This document shows positions 42,907-48,135 of a stretch of DNA of 64,000 nucleotides, piece after piece (position 1 is the first letter of the stretch; each line of letters opens with the position of its first letter). This DNA is from a virus. Below the pieces are notes generated by a model, which saw nothing but the letters and a program-made list of their open reading frames with translations, searched no databases and was not told the DNA's origin. The stretch covers positions 38,429 through 102,428 of the IMG/VR virus record IMGVR_UViG_3300022700_000069, one strand, 5' to 3'. The translations under genes and the position numbers were made by a program.

Positions 42907-42923
42907 AAAAAAATATAAGAAAT

Positions 42924-42955
42924 TGTAACATTTTGATTTTTTATACGTATTTATA
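42924..42955 (+). promoter_or_regulatory. ECF-type promoter TGTAAC-N16-CGTA overlapping the late motif GTATTTATA
   Basis: Same elements and spacing as 44120-44145. Confidence 0.6.
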
Positions 42956-43003
42956 GTCTCAAGTAAACAAATTAAAAATTTTTATATTTTTTTATAAAAA
43001 AAC

Positions 43004-43034
43004 TTGCATAGAATAAAAAGTTATTATATCTTTG
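43004..43034 (+). promoter_or_regulatory. Bacteroidota sigma70-type promoter of the RNA array
   Basis: TTG-N20-TATCTTTG. Confidence 0.7.
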
Positions 43035-43078
43035 TAAAAGTAAAATAAAATTGTTCTTTGAATATTTTTAAATTAAAT

Positions 43079-43219
43079 GGGGAGGTATGCAAATTAGCAT
43101 ATTTAAAATATGATCGCATTCCTCATCTACTGTGAGAACTGGTGATATTTACAGTAATATTAGGTAAAGCAAATTGTCCGTAAAACAATTGATTGTTGGT
43201 TCAAATCCAACCCTCCCCA
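43079..43219 (+). ncRNA. tRNA-Tyr(GTA)-like RNA with ~68-nt module inserted in the D-loop
   Basis: Acceptor GGGGAGG/CCTCCCC, D stem TGC/GCA, anticodon arm ATTGT-CCGTAAA-ACAAT, T arm GTTGG-TTCAAAT-CCAAC. Module at 43107-43156. Confidence 0.85.
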
Positions 43220-43232
43220 CTAAAAAAAAAAT

Positions 43233-43355
43233 GGAAAACTGTTTGTTAATTCAGTACAATTAGATCAGTTGGATAGATCACAAGCCTCTTAAGTTTGAAG
43301 TCGGTGGTTCAAGTCCACCATTGTAAAAACCATAATTTAACAAACAAATTATTCC
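43233..43355 (+). ncRNA. Module-wrapped tRNA-Lys(CTT)-like RNA
   Basis: Cloverleaf 43255-43325 with 6-bp acceptor TACAAT/ATTGTA, enclosed by GGAA-AACT-GTTTGTTAA...TTAACAAAC-AAATTA-TTCC. Confidence 0.85.
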
Positions 43356-43366
43356 TTAAAATATAT

Positions 43367-43440
43367 TGCGGGATAGAGAAGTCTGGAATCTCGTCTGGCT
43401 CATAACCAGAAGGTCGAGGGTTCAAATCCCTCTCCCGCTA
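43367..43440 (+). tRNA. tRNA-Met(CAT), initiator-like
   Basis: Canonical cloverleaf, TCTGG-CTCATAA-CCAGA, unpaired 1:72 (T/T), no encoded CCA. Confidence 0.92.
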
Positions 43441-43446
43441 CAAAAA

Positions 43447-43520
43447 GAAGAACTGTTAGTTTTTACAGTAAATTTGATGCAACTCAAAATTCTTACAAAC
43501 AAAAACTAACAAATTTCTTC
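43447..43520 (+). ncRNA. Minimal module RNA enclosing a small hairpin
   Basis: GAAG-AACT-GTTAGTTTT-TACAGTA...AAAACTAAC-AAATTT-CTTC. Confidence 0.8.
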
Positions 43521-43556
43521 TAAGTTATTAAAAAGTTCTTTAAAAAAAGATTAAAC

Positions 43557-43701
43557 GGAGGGGTAGATTAGTAATAATTTACATCAAATATTGACAAACT
43601 ACTCCTGTATTGTTGGAGAACCGACAATATTTTCAGTATAAAACGGATAAATCATTTGCATTTTAAGCAAAAGTCTGTGGGTTCGAGTCCCGCCCCCTCC
43701 G
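43557..43701 (+). ncRNA. tRNA-Lys(TTT)-like RNA with ~70-nt module inserted in the D-loop
   Basis: Acceptor GGAGGGG/CCCCTCC, D stem GATT/AATC, TTTGC-ATTTTAA-GCAAA, GTGGG-TTCGAGT-CCCGC. Module at 43587-43638. Confidence 0.85.
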
Positions 43702-43706
43702 CTAAT

Positions 43707-43855
43707 TTTGGGAAAACTAAAAGTATTTACAGTAAAATTGTAGGTTCGAGTCCTACTATTATCTCCATTAATTGATAATATGGTCAAATGGTAAAGACGC
43801 AACTCTTGAAAAGTTGATTATAAATACAATATAATACTTTTAAATTGTTCCCAAA
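43707..43855 (+). ncRNA. Module-wrapped circularly permuted tRNA-Ser(TGA)-like RNA
   Basis: Order is T arm, acceptor 3' strand+TCCA, linker, acceptor 5' strand, D arm, anticodon arm, all enclosed by the module. Confidence 0.85.
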
Positions 43856-44058
43856 TAATTATTTTGGGTGGTTTTTAATGTGGTTGATAAATTCTATAAA
43901 TAAATTGAGTAAACCCACCACTCAACGATTTTGAGGCTATTAATGCTAGAGTTTTTTATTAAAAAATGGGACGCATTATCTAACATTTGATGATTAAAAA
44001 TGGTTTTTTTCCTTTAGGAGTTTTTTCATAAAATTTTATATGGAAGAAGATTTTCATA

Positions 44059-44120
44059 AAAAAAAAATGGTGGGTTATTATTGGATAATTATATTCAATT
44101 TTAATTCATCATTTTTTTTT
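44059..44120 (+). terminator. Long terminator-like hairpin
   Basis: A9-TGGTGGGTTA...TAATTCATCA-T9, with G:U pairs on the + strand. Confidence 0.5.
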
Positions 44121-44146
44121 GTAACATTTATTTTTATAAATCGTAT
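44120..44146 (+). promoter_or_regulatory. ECF-type promoter TGTAAC-N16-CGTA
   Basis: Matches 42924-42950; about 40 nt upstream of ATG 44188. Confidence 0.6.
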
Positions 44147-44187
44147 AATATAACATTGTTTAATTTTAATAAATATAAAATCGTATC

Positions 44188-45804
44188 ATGAAGAACTTAG
44201 TGTTAGCAAATGACAAAGTAATAACAATCAAAAAGAATTTGATTGAAGGTATGACAATTGCTTCAGGTGCAAAATCATCAGCAACTTATTATCATAGTAA
44301 AGAGGAACAAACCCAAGCAATTAAAAATAATGTAAAAAAACTTTATAATCTATCTAAAGAACTTCCATTAATTGTAGCATCACAAAGAGGTGTAACTGGT
44401 AAGTTTATATCTGAGGTACTTTTAAATGAATTTAAAAGTACTCAAAGTGGTGGTGCATGTAATATTGTTAATCCTATTGATTGGTATGATGAAAGGATTG
44501 GTGATAAGGCACTTTTAACTGCATTATATAATTTGAATGAAGTTGGTATTACATATGTACTTCGTCTTTTTGTTGAGATGAAAAATGAAAAGATTAATAA
44601 TGAAAGAGCAAGAAAAATTATTCTTGGATTTTTGCTTGGTCATCCTAATTTTGAATTTTATTCATTGAAATATCGTAATAAAATTAGTGAGATATTGCAA
44701 CATGTGTATGGTATTAAAAAAACATCGGTTTTGCTTTCAATTGCAAAAAAATTCATTCAATCAGGTCTATATGATAATGATAAAGAAGCAAATATTGTTA
44801 ATGAAAATATTTTAAAATATACTTCTTTTGAAGATATTAAAATTTTTAAAATTTTGCTTTTTATCTTCAAAGAAGAGAATGGTATTTCATATCTTAAAAG
44901 GGATTTTCCAGTGCTTTTTGAATTTATGAAAGCTAAAAAAGATATTACAAATGTTACTAAAGTCCCTGAAGAAGTGCTTATTGGATTGATTTCAAATAAG
45001 AATCATCCACAATATGAAGAATTGTGGTCAACAGAATTAAAAAGAAAGACTACAAAAGCTATGTTGAGAAAAAATACTGAGGTAACATCGGTAAATCAAC
45101 AAGTTCGTCAAACAAAATCAACAGCTAAATTAGGTGTTGAAAAAAATGTTGATGTAAAAAAAGCAACTGATTTCTTAGCATTATATAAAACTGGTTATGA
45201 AAATGGATGGACTTCTGAATTGAGTAAAGCAATTGAAGAACTTGCAGAAAAGAAAAAAATTACTAATTTTTACTACAAAAATGTTGGAATTATTCTTGAT
45301 GATAGTAATTCAATGACTGGACATAAACAGCAATCTAAGAATACTCCAAAAGCAGTAGCAAATTTCACAGCAAAAGTTCTTTCAAAATCAGCAGAAAGTA
45401 CTATTGTATCAAAAGTTAACGATGAGGTAACAGATTTAGCATCAGCATTTGTTGACTTAATAAAAAGGAATGAAGATTATGATGCAATTTTTGTTGTTAC
45501 AGATGGATATGAAAATTGTTATGAGGGATTGTTTAATGAGGTATTGACAGCATATTTGTCAGAAACGAATAAAAATATGCCAATATTTCAAATTTCACCA
45601 ATTACTGGTGCTGAAATGGGTGGTAATGTTCGTAATTTGGGTGAAAATGTTGTAACAATGTCAATTAATGATCCTGTTGCAATTCAACCACAAATTAATG
45701 CAAGATTACTTGAAATTGATACCGCTCGTTGGTTGAAAAATCAAGTTCAAGCAATTGAACAAACAAATGTAACAAGAAAAGTAAATAAAAATATTAATGT
45801 ATAA
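44188..45804 (+). CDS. Ro60/TROVE-like protein: helical N-terminal region plus C-terminal vWA domain
   Basis: MIDAS IILDDSNSM, TDLA, AIFVVTDGYEN. 538-aa size and architecture are Ro-like. The vWA call is firm; the TROVE call is inferred. Confidence 0.6.
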   Translation: MKNLVLANDKVITIKKNLIEGMTIASGAKSSATYYHSKEEQTQAIKNNVKKLYNLSKELPLIVASQRGVTGKFISEVLLNEFKSTQSGGACNIVNPIDWYDERIGDKALLTALYNLNEVGITYVLRLFVEMKNEKINNERARKIILGFLLGHPNFEFYSLKYRNKISEILQHVYGIKKTSVLLSIAKKFIQSGLYDNDKEANIVNENILKYTSFEDIKIFKILLFIFKEENGISYLKRDFPVLFEFMKAKKDITNVTKVPEEVLIGLISNKNHPQYEELWSTELKRKTTKAMLRKNTEVTSVNQQVRQTKSTAKLGVEKNVDVKKATDFLALYKTGYENGWTSELSKAIEELAEKKKITNFYYKNVGIILDDSNSMTGHKQQSKNTPKAVANFTAKVLSKSAESTIVSKVNDEVTDLASAFVDLIKRNEDYDAIFVVTDGYENCYEGLFNEVLTAYLSETNKNMPIFQISPITGAEMGGNVRNLGENVVTMSINDPVAIQPQINARLLEIDTARWLKNQVQAIEQTNVTRKVNKNINV

Positions 45805-45815
45805 AACTTGAGACA

Positions 45816-46913
45816 ATGAATACAAGAGAATTTACAGAACTTTTAAAAGGCTGTCGTCCAATTAAGGATGACGAAGGAAACATCATCGTCCAAACAATTT
45901 TGAATATGCAAATTATTGGTCTTACTACTGATAAAGAATATTCTCTTGATGATCGTTTTGAAAATCCATTAACTGCATTAAGAGCATCTAATAGTTCTTA
46001 TGGTGAAGTTAGGTTTAATAATACTACTAATAAGGAAGTTATTGTACCAACTCAAATGGCTGTTATGACAAAACAACGTGCTCAAAATCATGGTATGACT
46101 AAAAGTGGTTATATTGGAAAAAATCAACAAACAACATTTCATGATGCAGGTTGTGTTCAAGGGTCTCAAGGTGGTACATTTAGAGATACTCAAGAATTCA
46201 GAATGCTTCCTGTTACAATGCGTGAAATGGCATTTAATGCAGTAAAGGATGGTCGTGGATATGACCGTATTTATCCTGCTATTCGTAATTTGGGTAAACA
46301 AACTCAATCAAATACTGCTGAATATTTGGATAAATATTTTTCAAAATATGATAAAAAATTAGAACAATTTATTGCACATTTTGAACGTCCAAAAAATTTG
46401 ATTGGTGTTATTGTAATGATCGATAATGAGATTGTTGCAATTGATAAATTTCCATCGTTTACATATGCAGAACAAGTATGGGATATGATGATTCGTGATT
46501 GCTATGGTGCATTGGCTATTATTTCTGAACTTGAGAATAAAACTGCAAACACTGTGTTTACAGATACATTTAAGGATGTTAAGCGTGAACATCAAGGAAA
46601 TGTGGTTGAAATGATTGAAACCGCATTAAAGAAAACTAAGAAATCAATAACTGATTCAGTTCAGGAAAAAATTGAGGAAATTTTAGAACTGGAATTTGAT
46701 GCAGAACGTGATAATGAAGGACATAGTTCAAATATGGGAGCACCTACATCATATATTCTAAAAAATGAGGGGTATACTGGACAAGTAATTACTGAAAGTG
46801 AGTATAATCACATGGTCAGTATTGTTAAAAAAGAATCTTTTGATGCAAATGCTCTTAGGAAGGTTAATGAATTACGTAGAAAGGCGAGATCACAAAATAG
46901 ATTTTCGTTATAG
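45816..46913 (+). CDS. ARPP-like (DUF6569-related) protein
   Basis: YGEVRF.N, AQNH, GCVQGSQ, GVIVMIDNEIVAID.F; 11 nt after the vWA gene. Confidence 0.55.
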   Translation: MNTREFTELLKGCRPIKDDEGNIIVQTILNMQIIGLTTDKEYSLDDRFENPLTALRASNSSYGEVRFNNTTNKEVIVPTQMAVMTKQRAQNHGMTKSGYIGKNQQTTFHDAGCVQGSQGGTFRDTQEFRMLPVTMREMAFNAVKDGRGYDRIYPAIRNLGKQTQSNTAEYLDKYFSKYDKKLEQFIAHFERPKNLIGVIVMIDNEIVAIDKFPSFTYAEQVWDMMIRDCYGALAIISELENKTANTVFTDTFKDVKREHQGNVVEMIETALKKTKKSITDSVQEKIEEILELEFDAERDNEGHSSNMGAPTSYILKNEGYTGQVITESEYNHMVSIVKKESFDANALRKVNELRRKARSQNRFSL

Positions 46914-47118: not shown

Positions 47119-48135
47119 ATGACATTTTTTTCAAGACCTAATTTAGATGATATACAATTTAAACAAACACAAAATTCATCATTATCTCTTTCAGGTCAAA
47201 CAAGATTTAGAACATGGTCGGGATTAACATTAAGTGATGGTGCGGGTGGTGATATTATTGTAACAATATCTGGTGCATCATCTGCGACCACTGAAGGTTA
47301 TGTTTTAACATACATGAACGGATTAATTTCCCTTCAACCTTCAAGTGTAAGTGGTGGAACTTTCCAATTTGATACACATAGAGAAACAACACGATCAGGT
47401 ATTCCCAATGTTTGTGTTGGTGGTGATTGTACAGTAACTAATTTTCTTGAAGAATATTTTTTCCCTGCAGTTGCTCCACAAGCAACATTAAGTATTGCAA
47501 CTGGTGGTTCAACAAGAGAATTTGGTAATTGTGCTGTTGGTAATTTATGTTATGAAGGTATTAGAGAAACAAATCAAATTTGCCTTATTGCACTTGATAT
47601 AGATGCAGATGGATCATATGATGAATATCCAGAATCATCGCCAATTACCGGAGATTGTTGTGGAAATATTTCTTATACATATAGTTTTGGATGTGCTATA
47701 CCACCAACAGGAACATCTGAAACATCAATAAGTTTTAAGAATTGTGTTGAAGATGTTTGTGGTAAATGTGATATTGCAAATGCAAATATTACATGGAGAA
47801 ACAGGGTTTTTGGTTTGAAATCATCTACATTATACACAGATTCATCAATTTCTTCTGTATTAGGAAGTTCATTTATAAATACATTAGATACTAATAAATC
47901 TCGTGTAATTTCAAATGAAAATTTTAATAATCAATTTTTTTATTATTTATATCCATCATCATTTGGTGTACCAACTTTTACTGTAAATGGTTTACCAAAT
48001 AATGCTTGGGGTAATTCGACAACAGGAACATTATTTAAAATTAACTATACTAACACATATGGTTATTTAAATCAATATTATGTAGCAAGATCAGATAGTA
48101 GAATAACTGGAACATATAATATAAATATATCTTAA
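47119..48135 (+). CDS. Virion fibre-associated protein, Cys-rich
   Basis: N-terminus RPNLD..F.Q....LSLSG.T is shared with other fibre genes. Confidence 0.7.
   Translation: MTFFSRPNLDDIQFKQTQNSSLSLSGQTRFRTWSGLTLSDGAGGDIIVTISGASSATTEGYVLTYMNGLISLQPSSVSGGTFQFDTHRETTRSGIPNVCVGGDCTVTNFLEEYFFPAVAPQATLSIATGGSTREFGNCAVGNLCYEGIRETNQICLIALDIDADGSYDEYPESSPITGDCCGNISYTYSFGCAIPPTGTSETSISFKNCVEDVCGKCDIANANITWRNRVFGLKSSTLYTDSSISSVLGSSFINTLDTNKSRVISNENFNNQFFYYLYPSSFGVPTFTVNGLPNNAWGNSTTGTLFKINYTNTYGYLNQYYVARSDSRITGTYNINIS

What the first reader, a model, noticed from the sequence alone, without database searches (positions are those of the whole stretch)
43707..43855. Circularly permuted tRNA-Ser(TGA) with internal CCA, opened at the variable arm
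Seen: T arm (43740-43756), acceptor 3' strand TATTATC + T-CCA (43757-43767), linker TTAATT, acceptor 5' strand GATAATA (43774-43780), D arm GTC-AAATGGTAAA-GAC, anticodon arm CAACT-CTTGAAA-AGTTG. The module occupies the place of the long variable arm of tRNA-Ser. YrlA is also T-before-D, but its Ro-binding stem replaces the anticodon arm, whereas here the anticodon arm is intact. Inference: RNase P plus 3' trimming of the linker would give a two-piece, CCA-ended tRNA held together by pairing.
Basis: partly seen in the sequence, partly recalled or inferred. Interest (0 to 1): 0.85.

Follow-up and report, generated by a model that had tools for sequence, protein, structure and literature searches.

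The report
Inside-out tRNA mimic beside phage Ro60
An uncultured giant phage encodes a small RNA built like a complete tRNA whose chain ends have been moved to the variable-arm position; about 70 related phages keep it, with compensating base changes, next to a Ro60-shaped protein gene, so it is most likely a new variant of the tRNA-mimicking Y RNAs and not a working serine tRNA.

Summary
At 43709-43853 (+) lie, in this order: a closing stem, a T arm, a 7-bp acceptor stem capped by U-CCA-UUAAUU, a D arm, an anticodon arm, and the other strand of the closing stem. A terminator-like hairpin follows.

A covariance model finds one full copy (at least 121 bits) in 72 of 80 related phage stretches, and exactly one in each of three complete genomes. 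It always lies just upstream of the same 538-aa gene. All 7 acceptor pairs and all 5 anticodon-stem pairs show changes on both sides.

The neighbouring protein has no Pfam TROVE match, but it folds as Ro60 (pLDDT 93; Z 17.7 over 411 residues).

The best reading is a YrlA-like Y RNA partner of a divergent phage Ro60. What is new is that it keeps a full anticodon arm and carries its protein 'handle' at the variable-arm position.

The tRNA-Ser reading is not supported. Among relatives the anticodon is hypervariable (15 triplets) and U33 is present in only 27 of 42. N-CCA is present in 28 of 42, and some caps are sealed 5-nt loops. RNase P cleavage into two pieces remains plausible for this copy, as shown for M. 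smegmatis YrlA.

No expression data could be obtained. Earlier notes of this scan describe similar phage Ro60-like genes with RNA arrays on other DNA.

The parts
43710..43714 (+). Handle stem S1, 5' strand (GGGAA); pairs with 43848-43852
   Evidence: In 42 homologues the pairs are nearly invariant, and one sequence changes G-C to A-U at two pairs.
43715..43717 (+). Invariant AAC, the 5' side of an asymmetric internal loop of the handle
   Evidence: Invariant columns A7 A8 C9 in alignment A3. The motif AAC-N8-WTTWCAGTA occurs only in this RNA cluster: 4 exact copies in 102 kb, 0 for the reversed control.
43718..43727 (+). Handle stem S2, 5' strand; pairs with 43833-43842
   Evidence: 5 of 11 pairs change on both sides. 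The N8 differs between the cluster's RNAs, and the opposite strand matches it each time (read).
43729..43739 (+). Single-stranded junction ACAGTAAAATT; C-A-G-T-A is invariant
   Evidence: Invariant columns C22 A23 G24 T25 A26.
43740..43756 (+). T arm (GTAGG-TTCGAGT-CCTAC)
   Evidence: 100% paired, 3 of 5 pairs covary, and G53, T54, T55, C56, A58 and C61 are invariant.
43757..43763 (+). Acceptor stem, 3' strand (TATTATC)
   Evidence: 7 of 7 pairs change on both sides, 99.3% paired. The nearest relative has T3-A70 changed to C3-G70.
43764..43773 (+). Cap of the acceptor stem: discriminator T, CCA (43765-43767), linker TTAATT
   Evidence: Among 42 homologues N-CCA is present in 28, cap length is 5-23 nt, and the last cap base is T in 36.
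43774..43780 (+). Acceptor stem, 5' strand (GATAATA)
43781..43799 (+). U8-G9, D arm (GTC-AAATGGTAAA-GAC), G26
   Evidence: U8, G10, A14 and G18 are invariant and G19 nearly so; 2 of 3 stem pairs covary.
43800..43816 (+). Anticodon arm CAACT-CTTGAAA-AGTTG (triplet TGA at 43807-43809)
   Evidence: 5 of 5 stem pairs covary. The loop is always 7 nt, positions 37-38 are AA in 38-39 of 42, and positions 33-36 change 5-10 times faster than the rest.
43817..43832 (+). A-rich single-stranded linker to the handle
   Evidence: consensus AAAAACAACA.
43833..43852 (+). Handle 3' strand: S2' (43833-43842), internal loop AATTG (43843-43847), S1' TTCCC (43848-43852)
43850..43877 (+). Terminator-like hairpin CCCAAA...TTTGGG plus T run, sharing CCC with S1'
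   Evidence: 3 terminator-like sites against 0.4 expected, and this is the only one that is not the T arm.
44188..45804 (+). Partner gene: 538-aa protein with the Ro60 fold (helical ring plus vWA domain with a DxSxS...D MIDAS motif)
   Evidence: AlphaFold2 pLDDT 93.3. The top 13 Foldseek hits are all Ro60/Rsr/phage phiLo Ro60. Z 17.7, 411 residues aligned over 16-509. D371, S375 and D439 are invariant and S373 nearly so.
45816..46913 (+). ARPP-1 domain protein, conserved neighbour of the Ro60-like gene
   Evidence: Pfam PF20208, E 3.8e-15. Present downstream in 75 of 80 stretches. Fused to the Ro60-like protein in P0269.

Best explanation
The element is a gene for a non-coding RNA of about 145 nt of the Y RNA kind, closest to YrlA. 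Its 5' and 3' ends pair into a conserved 'handle': GGGAA, an AAC internal loop, a 10-bp stem, then the single-stranded junction ACAGUAA. This handle is the likely docking site for the phage's own Ro60-shaped ring protein, encoded 335 nt downstream. The rest folds into an L-shaped tRNA mimic with T arm, capped acceptor stem, D arm and, unlike YrlA, a complete anticodon arm. It would present a tRNA-like surface to a host or phage tRNA-binding factor while tethered to Ro60.

Shown here: the permuted cloverleaf and the handle are conserved with covariation; there is one copy per genome, always beside the Ro60-fold gene; the protein has the Ro60 fold.

Inferred: the RNA is transcribed; the handle binds the Ro60-like protein; the particle acts in RNA surveillance, tRNA repair or counter-defence. 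In this copy, and in about two thirds of relatives, the cap has the marks of an RNase P substrate with an encoded CCA. The RNA may therefore be opened into two paired pieces, as M. smegmatis YrlA is, but that step is not needed family-wide.
For: Structure: 95.7% of pairs form, 25 of 37 pairs change on both sides, and shuffled and slid controls are far lower. The nucleotides that make the tRNA elbow (U8, A14, G18, G53, T54, T55, C56, A58, C61) are invariant and G19 nearly so.

Distribution: model R1 gives 72 hits of at least 121 bits in 80 stretches fetched through the neighbouring protein, with the next class at 51 bits or less. Each of three complete 349-365 kb genomes has exactly one full hit, beside that gene.

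Partner: Ro60 fold with Z 17.7 over 411 residues, the ten best matches all Ro60/Rsr, and a conserved MIDAS motif.

Modularity typical of Y RNAs: four further RNAs of the same cluster carry the same handle motif, which occurs nowhere else in 102 kb or in a 247 kb relative.

Precedent: YrlA RNAs lie next to Ro60 genes in more than 250 bacteria and phages and are described as resembling circularly permuted tRNAs with closed acceptor stems. M. smegmatis YrlA is cut by RNase P and gets CCA. Thermus phage phiLo Ro60 binds two phage-encoded Y-like RNAs. One homologue of this element scores 37 bits on Rfam YrlA, with T arm, acceptor hairpin and D arm aligned.
Against: No transcript or binding data: no RNA run holds the sequence. 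The window copy has no Rfam YrlA match, and the best homologue is below the gathering score (37 against 69 bits). The handle lacks a conserved GNCGAA/CGAA Ro-binding motif: the base after AAC is G or T. Sequence models do not recognise the protein as TROVE, even at E 10, so 'Ro60' rests on the predicted fold. The handle could instead bind ARPP-1 or be a processing signal. A distant homologue of the protein (27% identity) has no such RNA within 3.5 kb.
Confidence: 0.62

Rival explanations
1. It is a true decoding tRNA made from a permuted gene. One route is a two-piece tRNA: RNase P cut at 43773/43774 and trimming to CCA at 43767. The other is joining of the ends by a phage RNA ligase, then opening of the cap, as in Cyanidioschyzon merolae. 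The handle would serve as a long variable arm, so that SerRS could charge it whatever the anticodon.
For: This copy has all four arms, U33, A37, a 7-nt loop, a 7-bp acceptor stem, N-CCA, U at -1 and G at +1. 28 of 42 relatives keep N-CCA, and 36 of 42 have T before the acceptor 5' strand. Relatives encode a CCA-adding-type nucleotidyltransferase and Rnl-type RNA ligases. SerRS does not read the anticodon (established knowledge).
Against: The anticodon triplet is not conserved: 15 kinds in 42 sequences, and positions 33-36 differ at about 0.4 per site between copies that are about 95% identical elsewhere. U33 is kept in only 27 of 42. The discriminator varies (A 18, G 16, T 4, C 4) and is U here, whereas bacterial tRNA-Ser has G73 (established knowledge). 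A sublineage has sealed 5-nt caps without N-CCA. 9-16 unpaired bases flank the 'variable arm' on each side. There is no bulge-helix-bulge motif, and no RtcB was found in five relatives. Ordinary tRNA clusters exist elsewhere in these genomes.
Confidence: 0.07
2. It is a decoy or bait for host defences that attack tRNA. The exposed anticodon loop imitates whichever host tRNA the local anticodon nuclease cuts, and the Ro60-like ring (with ARPP-1 and, in some lineages, an RNA ligase) holds, protects or repairs it. Different phage lineages carry different anticodons because their hosts carry different nucleases.
For: Positions 33-36 evolve 5-10 times faster than the rest, while positions 32, 37 and 38 and the stem stay tRNA-like. 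The ordinary-order tRNA-like RNA in the same cluster shows the same anticodon turnover, with about 20 anticodons among relatives. In Salmonella the rsr-yrlBA-rtcBA operon is regulated by damaged tRNAs (paper PMC7790460, abstract seen). An RNA ligase lies two genes downstream in one lineage.
Against: Fast change can equally mean no constraint on those four bases. No nuclease, host or cleavage is known. No relation was seen between the anticodons of the two RNAs of one phage. The RNA ligase is absent from most loci (2 of 80).
Confidence: 0.15
3. The leader/trailer stem is only a processing signal of a polycistronic tRNA operon (RNase III-like excision), and the permuted part is a rearranged leftover of a tandem tRNA pair with no function of its own.
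For: The ordinary-order tRNA-like RNA at 43254-43327 lies in the same kind of stem, and its 5' end falls at the G of CAGTA. YrlA itself is thought to derive from a dimeric tRNA transcript.
Against: A leftover would not keep 37 pairs with compensating changes in about 70 loci, nor an invariant elbow. In two other RNAs of the cluster the handle sits inside the tRNA-like body, closed by a loop, which a flanking excision signal would not do. The single-stranded AAC and CAGUA are invariant.
Confidence: 0.06
4. It acts as DNA: a small mobile inverted-repeat element or recombination site that happened to capture tRNA pieces.
For: A handle-only module is present in the nearest relative (L002:3780-3850) and absent at the matching site of the window (about 44040-44060).
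Against: The stems differ in sequence between copies but stay complementary. They contain many G-T pairs that are valid only as RNA on the + strand: 35 of 42 at one pair. All copies share one orientation and sit in one RNA cluster.
Confidence: 0.03

Closest known systems
YrlA (Y RNA-like A; Rfam RF02553; Chen et al. 2014, PMC4201824; Wang et al. 2018, 10.1101/312249)
   Same: It is encoded next to a Ro60-type gene. The ends pair into a stem. The order is T arm, acceptor stem closed by a loop, UA, D arm. The elbow nucleotides are conserved. Phage examples are known.
   Different: YrlA has no anticodon loop; its stem to the Ro-binding module stands in place of the anticodon stem. Here a full 5-bp/7-nt anticodon arm is kept and the stem leaves from the variable-arm position. 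There is no conserved GNCGAA motif. The window copy gives no Rfam match (best homologue 37 bits against gathering 69). The partner protein is not recognised by the TROVE sequence model.
Mycobacterium smegmatis YrlA, cleaved by RNase P and given CCA in vivo (Chen et al. 2014)
   Same: A 7-bp acceptor stem closed by a loop that can be opened by RNase P to give a two-piece RNA with a tRNA-like 3' end.
   Different: There the CCA is added after nibbling; here it is encoded in the cap in 28 of 42 copies. Cleavage is untested here.
Thermus phage phiLo Ro60 with Yrl1/Yrl2 (PMC12135203; PDB 9KOP, 9L5Y)
   Same: A phage Ro60 with Y-like RNAs encoded just upstream. The structure matches the model (Z 14.8-14.9).
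   Different: The phiLo RNAs were identified by a CGAA bulge and are not described as tRNA mimics in the passages read. About 14% identity.
Circularly permuted tRNA genes of Cyanidioschyzon merolae (Soma et al. 2007, as cited)
   Same: The 3' half lies before the 5' half, the acceptor stem is first closed by a linker, and leader and trailer pair.
   Different: Those are opened at the anticodon loop or other sites and are processed by the splicing endonuclease and a ligase into ordinary decoding tRNAs with fixed anticodons. Here there is no bulge-helix-bulge motif and the anticodon is hypervariable.
Two-piece (permuted) tmRNA (Rfam RF01850, RF04321)
   Same: The gene order is T arm, acceptor 3' strand, CCA, spacer, acceptor 5' strand. 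There are weak partial Rfam matches over that stretch.
   Different: No G3-U70, no tag reading frame, no pseudoknots; scores of 16-20 bits against gathering scores of 47-84.

Membership tests
YrlA / Y RNA | Encoded adjacent to a Ro60 (Rsr/TROVE) gene | tested here: met
   A gene for a Ro60-fold protein starts 335 nt downstream of the RNA. The synteny holds in 72 of 80 stretches and in 3 of 3 complete genomes.
YrlA / Y RNA | 5' and 3' ends pair into a long stem that carries the protein-binding site | tested here: met
   S1 and S2 stems with covariation. Binding itself was not tested.
YrlA / Y RNA | Conserved GNCGAA(N0-1)G / CGAA motif in the Ro-binding helix | tested here: not met
   The handle consensus is GGGAAAAC[G/T]nAAAGUG; the base after AAC is G in about half of the copies and T in the window.
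YrlA / Y RNA | tRNA-like domain in the order T arm, closed acceptor stem, D arm, with elbow nucleotides conserved | tested here: met
   The Rfam YrlA model aligns these parts in L171.
YrlA / Y RNA | No anticodon loop; the stem to the Ro module replaces the anticodon arm | tested here: not met
   A separate 5-bp/7-nt anticodon arm is present in all 42 copies, and 5 of 5 pairs covary.
YrlA / Y RNA | Score at or above the Rfam RF02553 gathering score (69 bits) | tested here: not met
   No match for the window copy. Best homologue 37 bits.
Bacterial tRNA-Ser (class II decoding tRNA) | Conserved anticodon, U33, G73, and a long variable arm joined by 1-2 unpaired bases | tested here: not met
   15 anticodon triplets, U33 in 27 of 42, discriminator U in the window and mixed in relatives, and long unpaired linkers beside the stem. 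That tRNA-Ser has G73 and this arm geometry comes from established knowledge.
Bacterial tRNA-Ser (class II decoding tRNA) | Free 3' CCA end that is aminoacylated | not testable with these tools
   CCA is encoded inside the cap (43765-43767). Processing and charging need experiments.
Permuted tRNA genes (C. merolae type) | Bulge-helix-bulge at the leader/trailer junction, and a splicing endonuclease plus ligase route to a normal tRNA | tested here: not met
   The internal loop is AAC opposite 5-6 bases, not 3-4-3. No RtcB in five relatives. The endonuclease was not searched for.
Ro60 / TROVE proteins (the partner) | Ring of helical repeats plus a C-terminal vWA domain with a MIDAS motif | tested here: met
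   pLDDT 93.3. Z 17.7, rmsd 4.5 A, 411 residues aligned to 2i91_A over model 16-509. The next unrelated class reaches Z 9.8 or less and covers the vWA domain only. The DxSxS...D motif is conserved.
Ro60 / TROVE proteins (the partner) | Match to the Pfam TROVE model (PF05731) | tested here: not met
   No match in the protein, in 10 distant homologues, or in five genomes at E up to 10.
Two-piece tmRNA | G3-U70, tag reading frame, pseudoknots | tested here: not met
   The acceptor has U3-A70 (C3-G70 in L002). ARAGORN finds no tmRNA. Rfam scores are 16-20 bits.

The most novel reading that the evidence does not exclude
The phage makes a Ro60-tethered, RNase P-opened two-piece tRNA whose anticodon loop is a fast-evolving, swappable 'bait'. 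The loop copies the host tRNA that the local anticodon nuclease or other tRNA-targeting defence attacks, and the Ro60-like ring with ARPP-1 captures, shields or repairs it. That would be a programmable tRNA decoy particle. It would also give Ro60/Y RNA particles a defined role in phage-host conflict.
Probability: 0.13. Interest if true: 0.88.

Novelty: new variant of a known kind. Interest (0 to 1): 0.68.

Why it matters
Y RNAs that mimic tRNA are known, but what their tRNA-like part binds is still open. Every described YrlA lacks the anticodon loop. This family keeps the whole cloverleaf, usually with an encoded CCA, and hangs the protein handle from the variable-arm position. It therefore widens the known design space of tRNA mimics.

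It also offers a natural series in which the anticodon loop changes while everything else is fixed. Together with the Ro60-fold protein that sequence models miss and the tightly linked ARPP-1 gene, it defines a conserved RNA-protein module in a large clade of uncultured 350-kb phages.

The module could be tested directly: binding, RNase P cleavage, charging, and the effect of loop swaps. It also gives a covariance model for annotating an RNA that neither ARAGORN nor Rfam reports.

Tried and rejected
- My first collection pattern allowed too short a gap and could not match; one scan was wasted.
- A 14-base handle pattern against all viral contigs returned mostly single chance matches and was not used.
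- Expression: no RNA holder was listed for the stretch, and DNA holders had small shares only.
- Sequence-level identification of the partner failed: Pfam, NCBIfam, a PDB profile search (only a weak vWA match, E 0.7) and the TROVE model in five genomes.
- The first structure model, from 3 sequences, was unusable (pLDDT 47).
- GenBank phages hold only one distant homologue of the protein (27% identity, LR756500.1), and no copy of the RNA lies within 3.5 kb of it.
- No RtcB in five relatives.
- The window's third gene (47119-48135) is not the RNA ligase found at that place in L003.
- No relation was found between the anticodons of the permuted RNA and of the ordinary-order RNA in the same phage.
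- Earlier notes of this scan suggest that the junction motif (UUACAGUAA) resembles the 11-nt motif of Dictyostelium Class I RNAs. I could not verify this: the paper read gives the motif only as a logo, and a text search did not find it. It is left as an untested lead.

Full report
WHERE THE WINDOW COMES FROM
The window is bases 38429-102428 of a 102-kb IMG/VR virus record, judged about one third complete, with about 25% G+C. Relatives fetched later have genomes of 349-365 kb, so this is an uncultured giant phage. The nearest GenBank phages are very distant: the DnaB-like helicase is 25% identical at best.

The finding lies in a 1.3-kb gene-free stretch (42907-44187). The stretch sits between a DnaB-like helicase gene and a 538-aa gene, all on the + strand. 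ARAGORN and Rfam report only tRNA-Lys(CTT) at 43254-43327 and tRNA-Met at 43367-43441 there.

THE OBSERVATION
In order along the + strand:
- T arm, 43740-43756
- acceptor 3' strand TATTATC, then T and CCA
- linker TTAATT
- acceptor 5' strand GATAATA
- U8-G9
- D arm GTC-AAATGGTAAA-GAC
- G26
- anticodon arm CAACT-CTTGAAA-AGTTG

The whole is closed by pairing of 43710-43714 with 43848-43852 and of 43718-43727 with 43833-43842. The chain ends therefore sit where a tRNA's variable arm would be. A terminator-like hairpin with a T run follows at 43850-43877.

The minimum-energy fold recovers the closing stem, the T arm and the acceptor hairpin, but it is only weakly better than shuffled sequence (z -1.69). 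One sequence alone would not prove anything.

COMPARATIVE EVIDENCE
The downstream protein has hundreds of homologues. With an alignment of them I fetched 79 related viral loci. Nearly all carry the motif AAC-N8-WTTWCAGTA upstream of the gene, and most have a T loop about 30 nt after it.

I aligned 42 distinct copies (A3).
- 95.7% of cells form standard pairs. Shuffles give 77% and slid partners give 40-53%.
- 25 of 37 pairs change on both sides.
- The acceptor stem covaries at 7 of 7 pairs (99.3% paired) and the anticodon stem at 5 of 5.
- The nearest relative already shows T3-A70 changed to C3-G70.
- The bases that build the tRNA elbow (U8, A14, G18, G53, T54, T55, C56, A58, C61) are invariant and G19 nearly so.

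A covariance model built from A3 gives 72 hits of 121-153 bits in 80 stretches. The next class scores 51 bits or less and consists of other RNAs that share only the handle. In three complete genomes there is exactly one full hit each, next to the same gene. The many G-U pairs fix the strand as +.

WHAT THE RELATIVES SAY ABOUT A tRNA-Ser READING
- Discriminator followed by CCA: 28 of 42. Six have CAA. A sublineage has sealed 5-nt caps (CAATG, CATTG, CAGTG, CTTTG).
- Cap length: 5 to 23 nt.
- Anticodon loop: always 7 nt, with C32 in 30 of 42 and A37 and A38 in 39 and 38 of 42. Position 33 is T in only 27 of 42.
- Anticodon triplet: 15 different forms (CTT, TGA, GTT, ATT and others).
- Rate: between copies that are about 95% identical elsewhere, positions 33-36 differ at about 0.4 per site, 5-10 times the rate of the rest.
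- Discriminator: mixed, and U in the window.

A decoding tRNA would not change its anticodon while keeping the same body. Bacterial tRNA-Ser has G73 and a variable arm joined by one or two free bases (established knowledge); here 9-16 free bases lie on each side. The serine-tRNA identity is therefore not supported.

The proposed processing is another matter. This copy has the marks of an RNase P substrate: a 7-bp acceptor stem, U at -1, G at +1 and an N-CCA. T precedes the acceptor 5' strand in 36 of 42 copies. Chen et al. 2014 showed that M. smegmatis YrlA, which also has a 7-bp closed acceptor stem, is cut by RNase P in vitro and is cleaved and given CCA in vivo. Opening into two paired pieces is thus plausible for this copy. 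The sealed-cap lineage shows that it is not essential to the family.

THE NEIGHBOUR DECIDES THE READING
The 538-aa protein has no Pfam, NCBIfam or PDB sequence match beyond a faint vWA signal. The TROVE model finds nothing in five genomes, even at E 10.

With a 96-sequence alignment, AlphaFold2 gives pLDDT 93.3. The 13 best Foldseek matches are all Ro60, D. radiodurans Rsr or the Ro60 of Thermus phage phiLo. VIA-align gives Z 17.7 with 411 residues aligned across the whole chain. The next unrelated class (vWA domains only) stays at Z 9.8 or below. The MIDAS residues are conserved. The gene thus encodes a very divergent Ro60-fold protein.

An ARPP-1 domain gene follows it in 75 of 80 loci, and one distant homologue has the two fused. 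An RNA ligase lies two genes downstream in one lineage only. Relatives encode a CCA-adding-type nucleotidyltransferase but no RtcB.

THE HANDLE
The motif (GGGAA, AAC, an 8-10-bp stem of free sequence, WUUWCAGUA) occurs only in this cluster: four exact copies in 102 kb, and three in a 247-kb relative, all in the matching cluster.

Four other RNAs carry it:
- It wraps the ordinary-order tRNA-Lys-like RNA (one mismatch in the motif).
- It wraps a short RNA at about 43447-43530.
- It is inserted, closed by a loop, inside two further tRNA-like RNAs at 43080-43213 and 43556-43702.

One protein handle joined to varied 'effector' parts, in several RNAs encoded beside Ro60, is the pattern described for Y RNAs.

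COMPARISON WITH WHAT IS KNOWN
YrlA RNAs are described as resembling circularly permuted tRNAs with closed acceptor stems, and as lacking the anticodon loop, because the stem to the Ro module stands in place of the anticodon stem.

The present RNA shares the neighbourhood, the end-to-end stem, the T-acceptor-D order and the elbow. It differs in four respects:
- It keeps a full anticodon arm.
- Its stem is placed at the variable-arm position.
- It lacks a conserved CGAA-type motif.
- It fails the Rfam model: no match for the window copy, and 37 bits against a gathering score of 69 for the best homologue.

I therefore class it as a new variant of a known kind, not as a member of RF02553. I found no description of it in the papers searched. 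A review of jumbo phages notes only that a few carry a TROVE protein with a tRNA-like partner. Earlier notes of this scan describe similar phage Ro60-like genes with arrays of handle-bearing RNAs on other DNA. Those are unchecked leads and I did not use them as evidence.

VERDICT
The RNA and its permuted cloverleaf are real (about 0.95). That it is the RNA partner of the Ro60-fold protein is the best-supported mechanism (about 0.6), but it rests on synteny, modularity and precedent. No transcript or binding data could be obtained. The fast-changing anticodon loop is the most intriguing unexplained feature. It fits either lack of constraint or a bait for tRNA-targeting defences.

Noticed in passing
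window 43231-43357 (tRNA-Lys CTT at 43254-43327): The ordinary-order tRNA-Lys(CTT) is wrapped by the same handle: GGAAAAC-TGTTTGTT-AATTCA|GTA before it and TTAACAAACA...TTCC after it. Its counterpart in relatives keeps the same body but carries about 20 different anticodons (Ser, Ala, Ile, Asp, Thr, Leu, Glu, Arg, Cys, Asn, stop-reading and others). It looks like a tRNA mimic with a hypervariable anticodon, not a lysine tRNA.
   Followed up: partly
window 43080-43213 and 43556-43702: Two tRNA-like RNAs with a 7-bp G/C-rich acceptor stem, a T arm and an anticodon-like arm have the handle inserted after U8-A9 and closed by a loop. This is the inside-out form of the wrapping copies. The second folds with z -4.56. 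A homologue lies in L003:3211-3350.
   Followed up: partly
window 43445-43522; window about 44040-44060 compared with L002:3780-3850: Short handle-only RNAs (about 78 nt) occur in most relatives (hits of 35-46 bits). One such module is present in the nearest relative and absent at the matching site of the window, where only a short hairpin remains. Modules are therefore gained or lost.
   Followed up: no
L171:847-1276: A GOLLD RNA (Rfam RF02032, 205 bits, above gathering 150) lies directly upstream of the small-RNA cluster and the Ro60-like gene in one relative.
   Followed up: no
window 45816-46913; protein P0269: An ARPP-1 domain protein (an enzyme-like domain of unknown activity, described from conflict systems, PMC9503650) follows the Ro60-like gene in 75 of 80 loci. 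It is fused to a Ro60-like protein in one 884-aa homologue, which argues that the two work together.
   Followed up: partly
L003:7255-8250: In one lineage an RNA ligase (PHA02142 OB fold plus RNA_ligase domain) lies two genes after the Ro60-like gene. The window has an unrelated 338-aa gene at that place.
   Followed up: yes
window 43880-44040: The stretch between the terminator and the Ro60-like gene is well conserved with L002 and contains a GGGTGG...CCCACC hairpin. It could be another RNA or a regulatory leader.
   Followed up: no
G001:C1:72023-72412 and matching places in G002-G004: All four larger relatives encode a CCA-adding-type nucleotidyltransferase domain inside very long open frames (749-2259 aa).
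   Followed up: no
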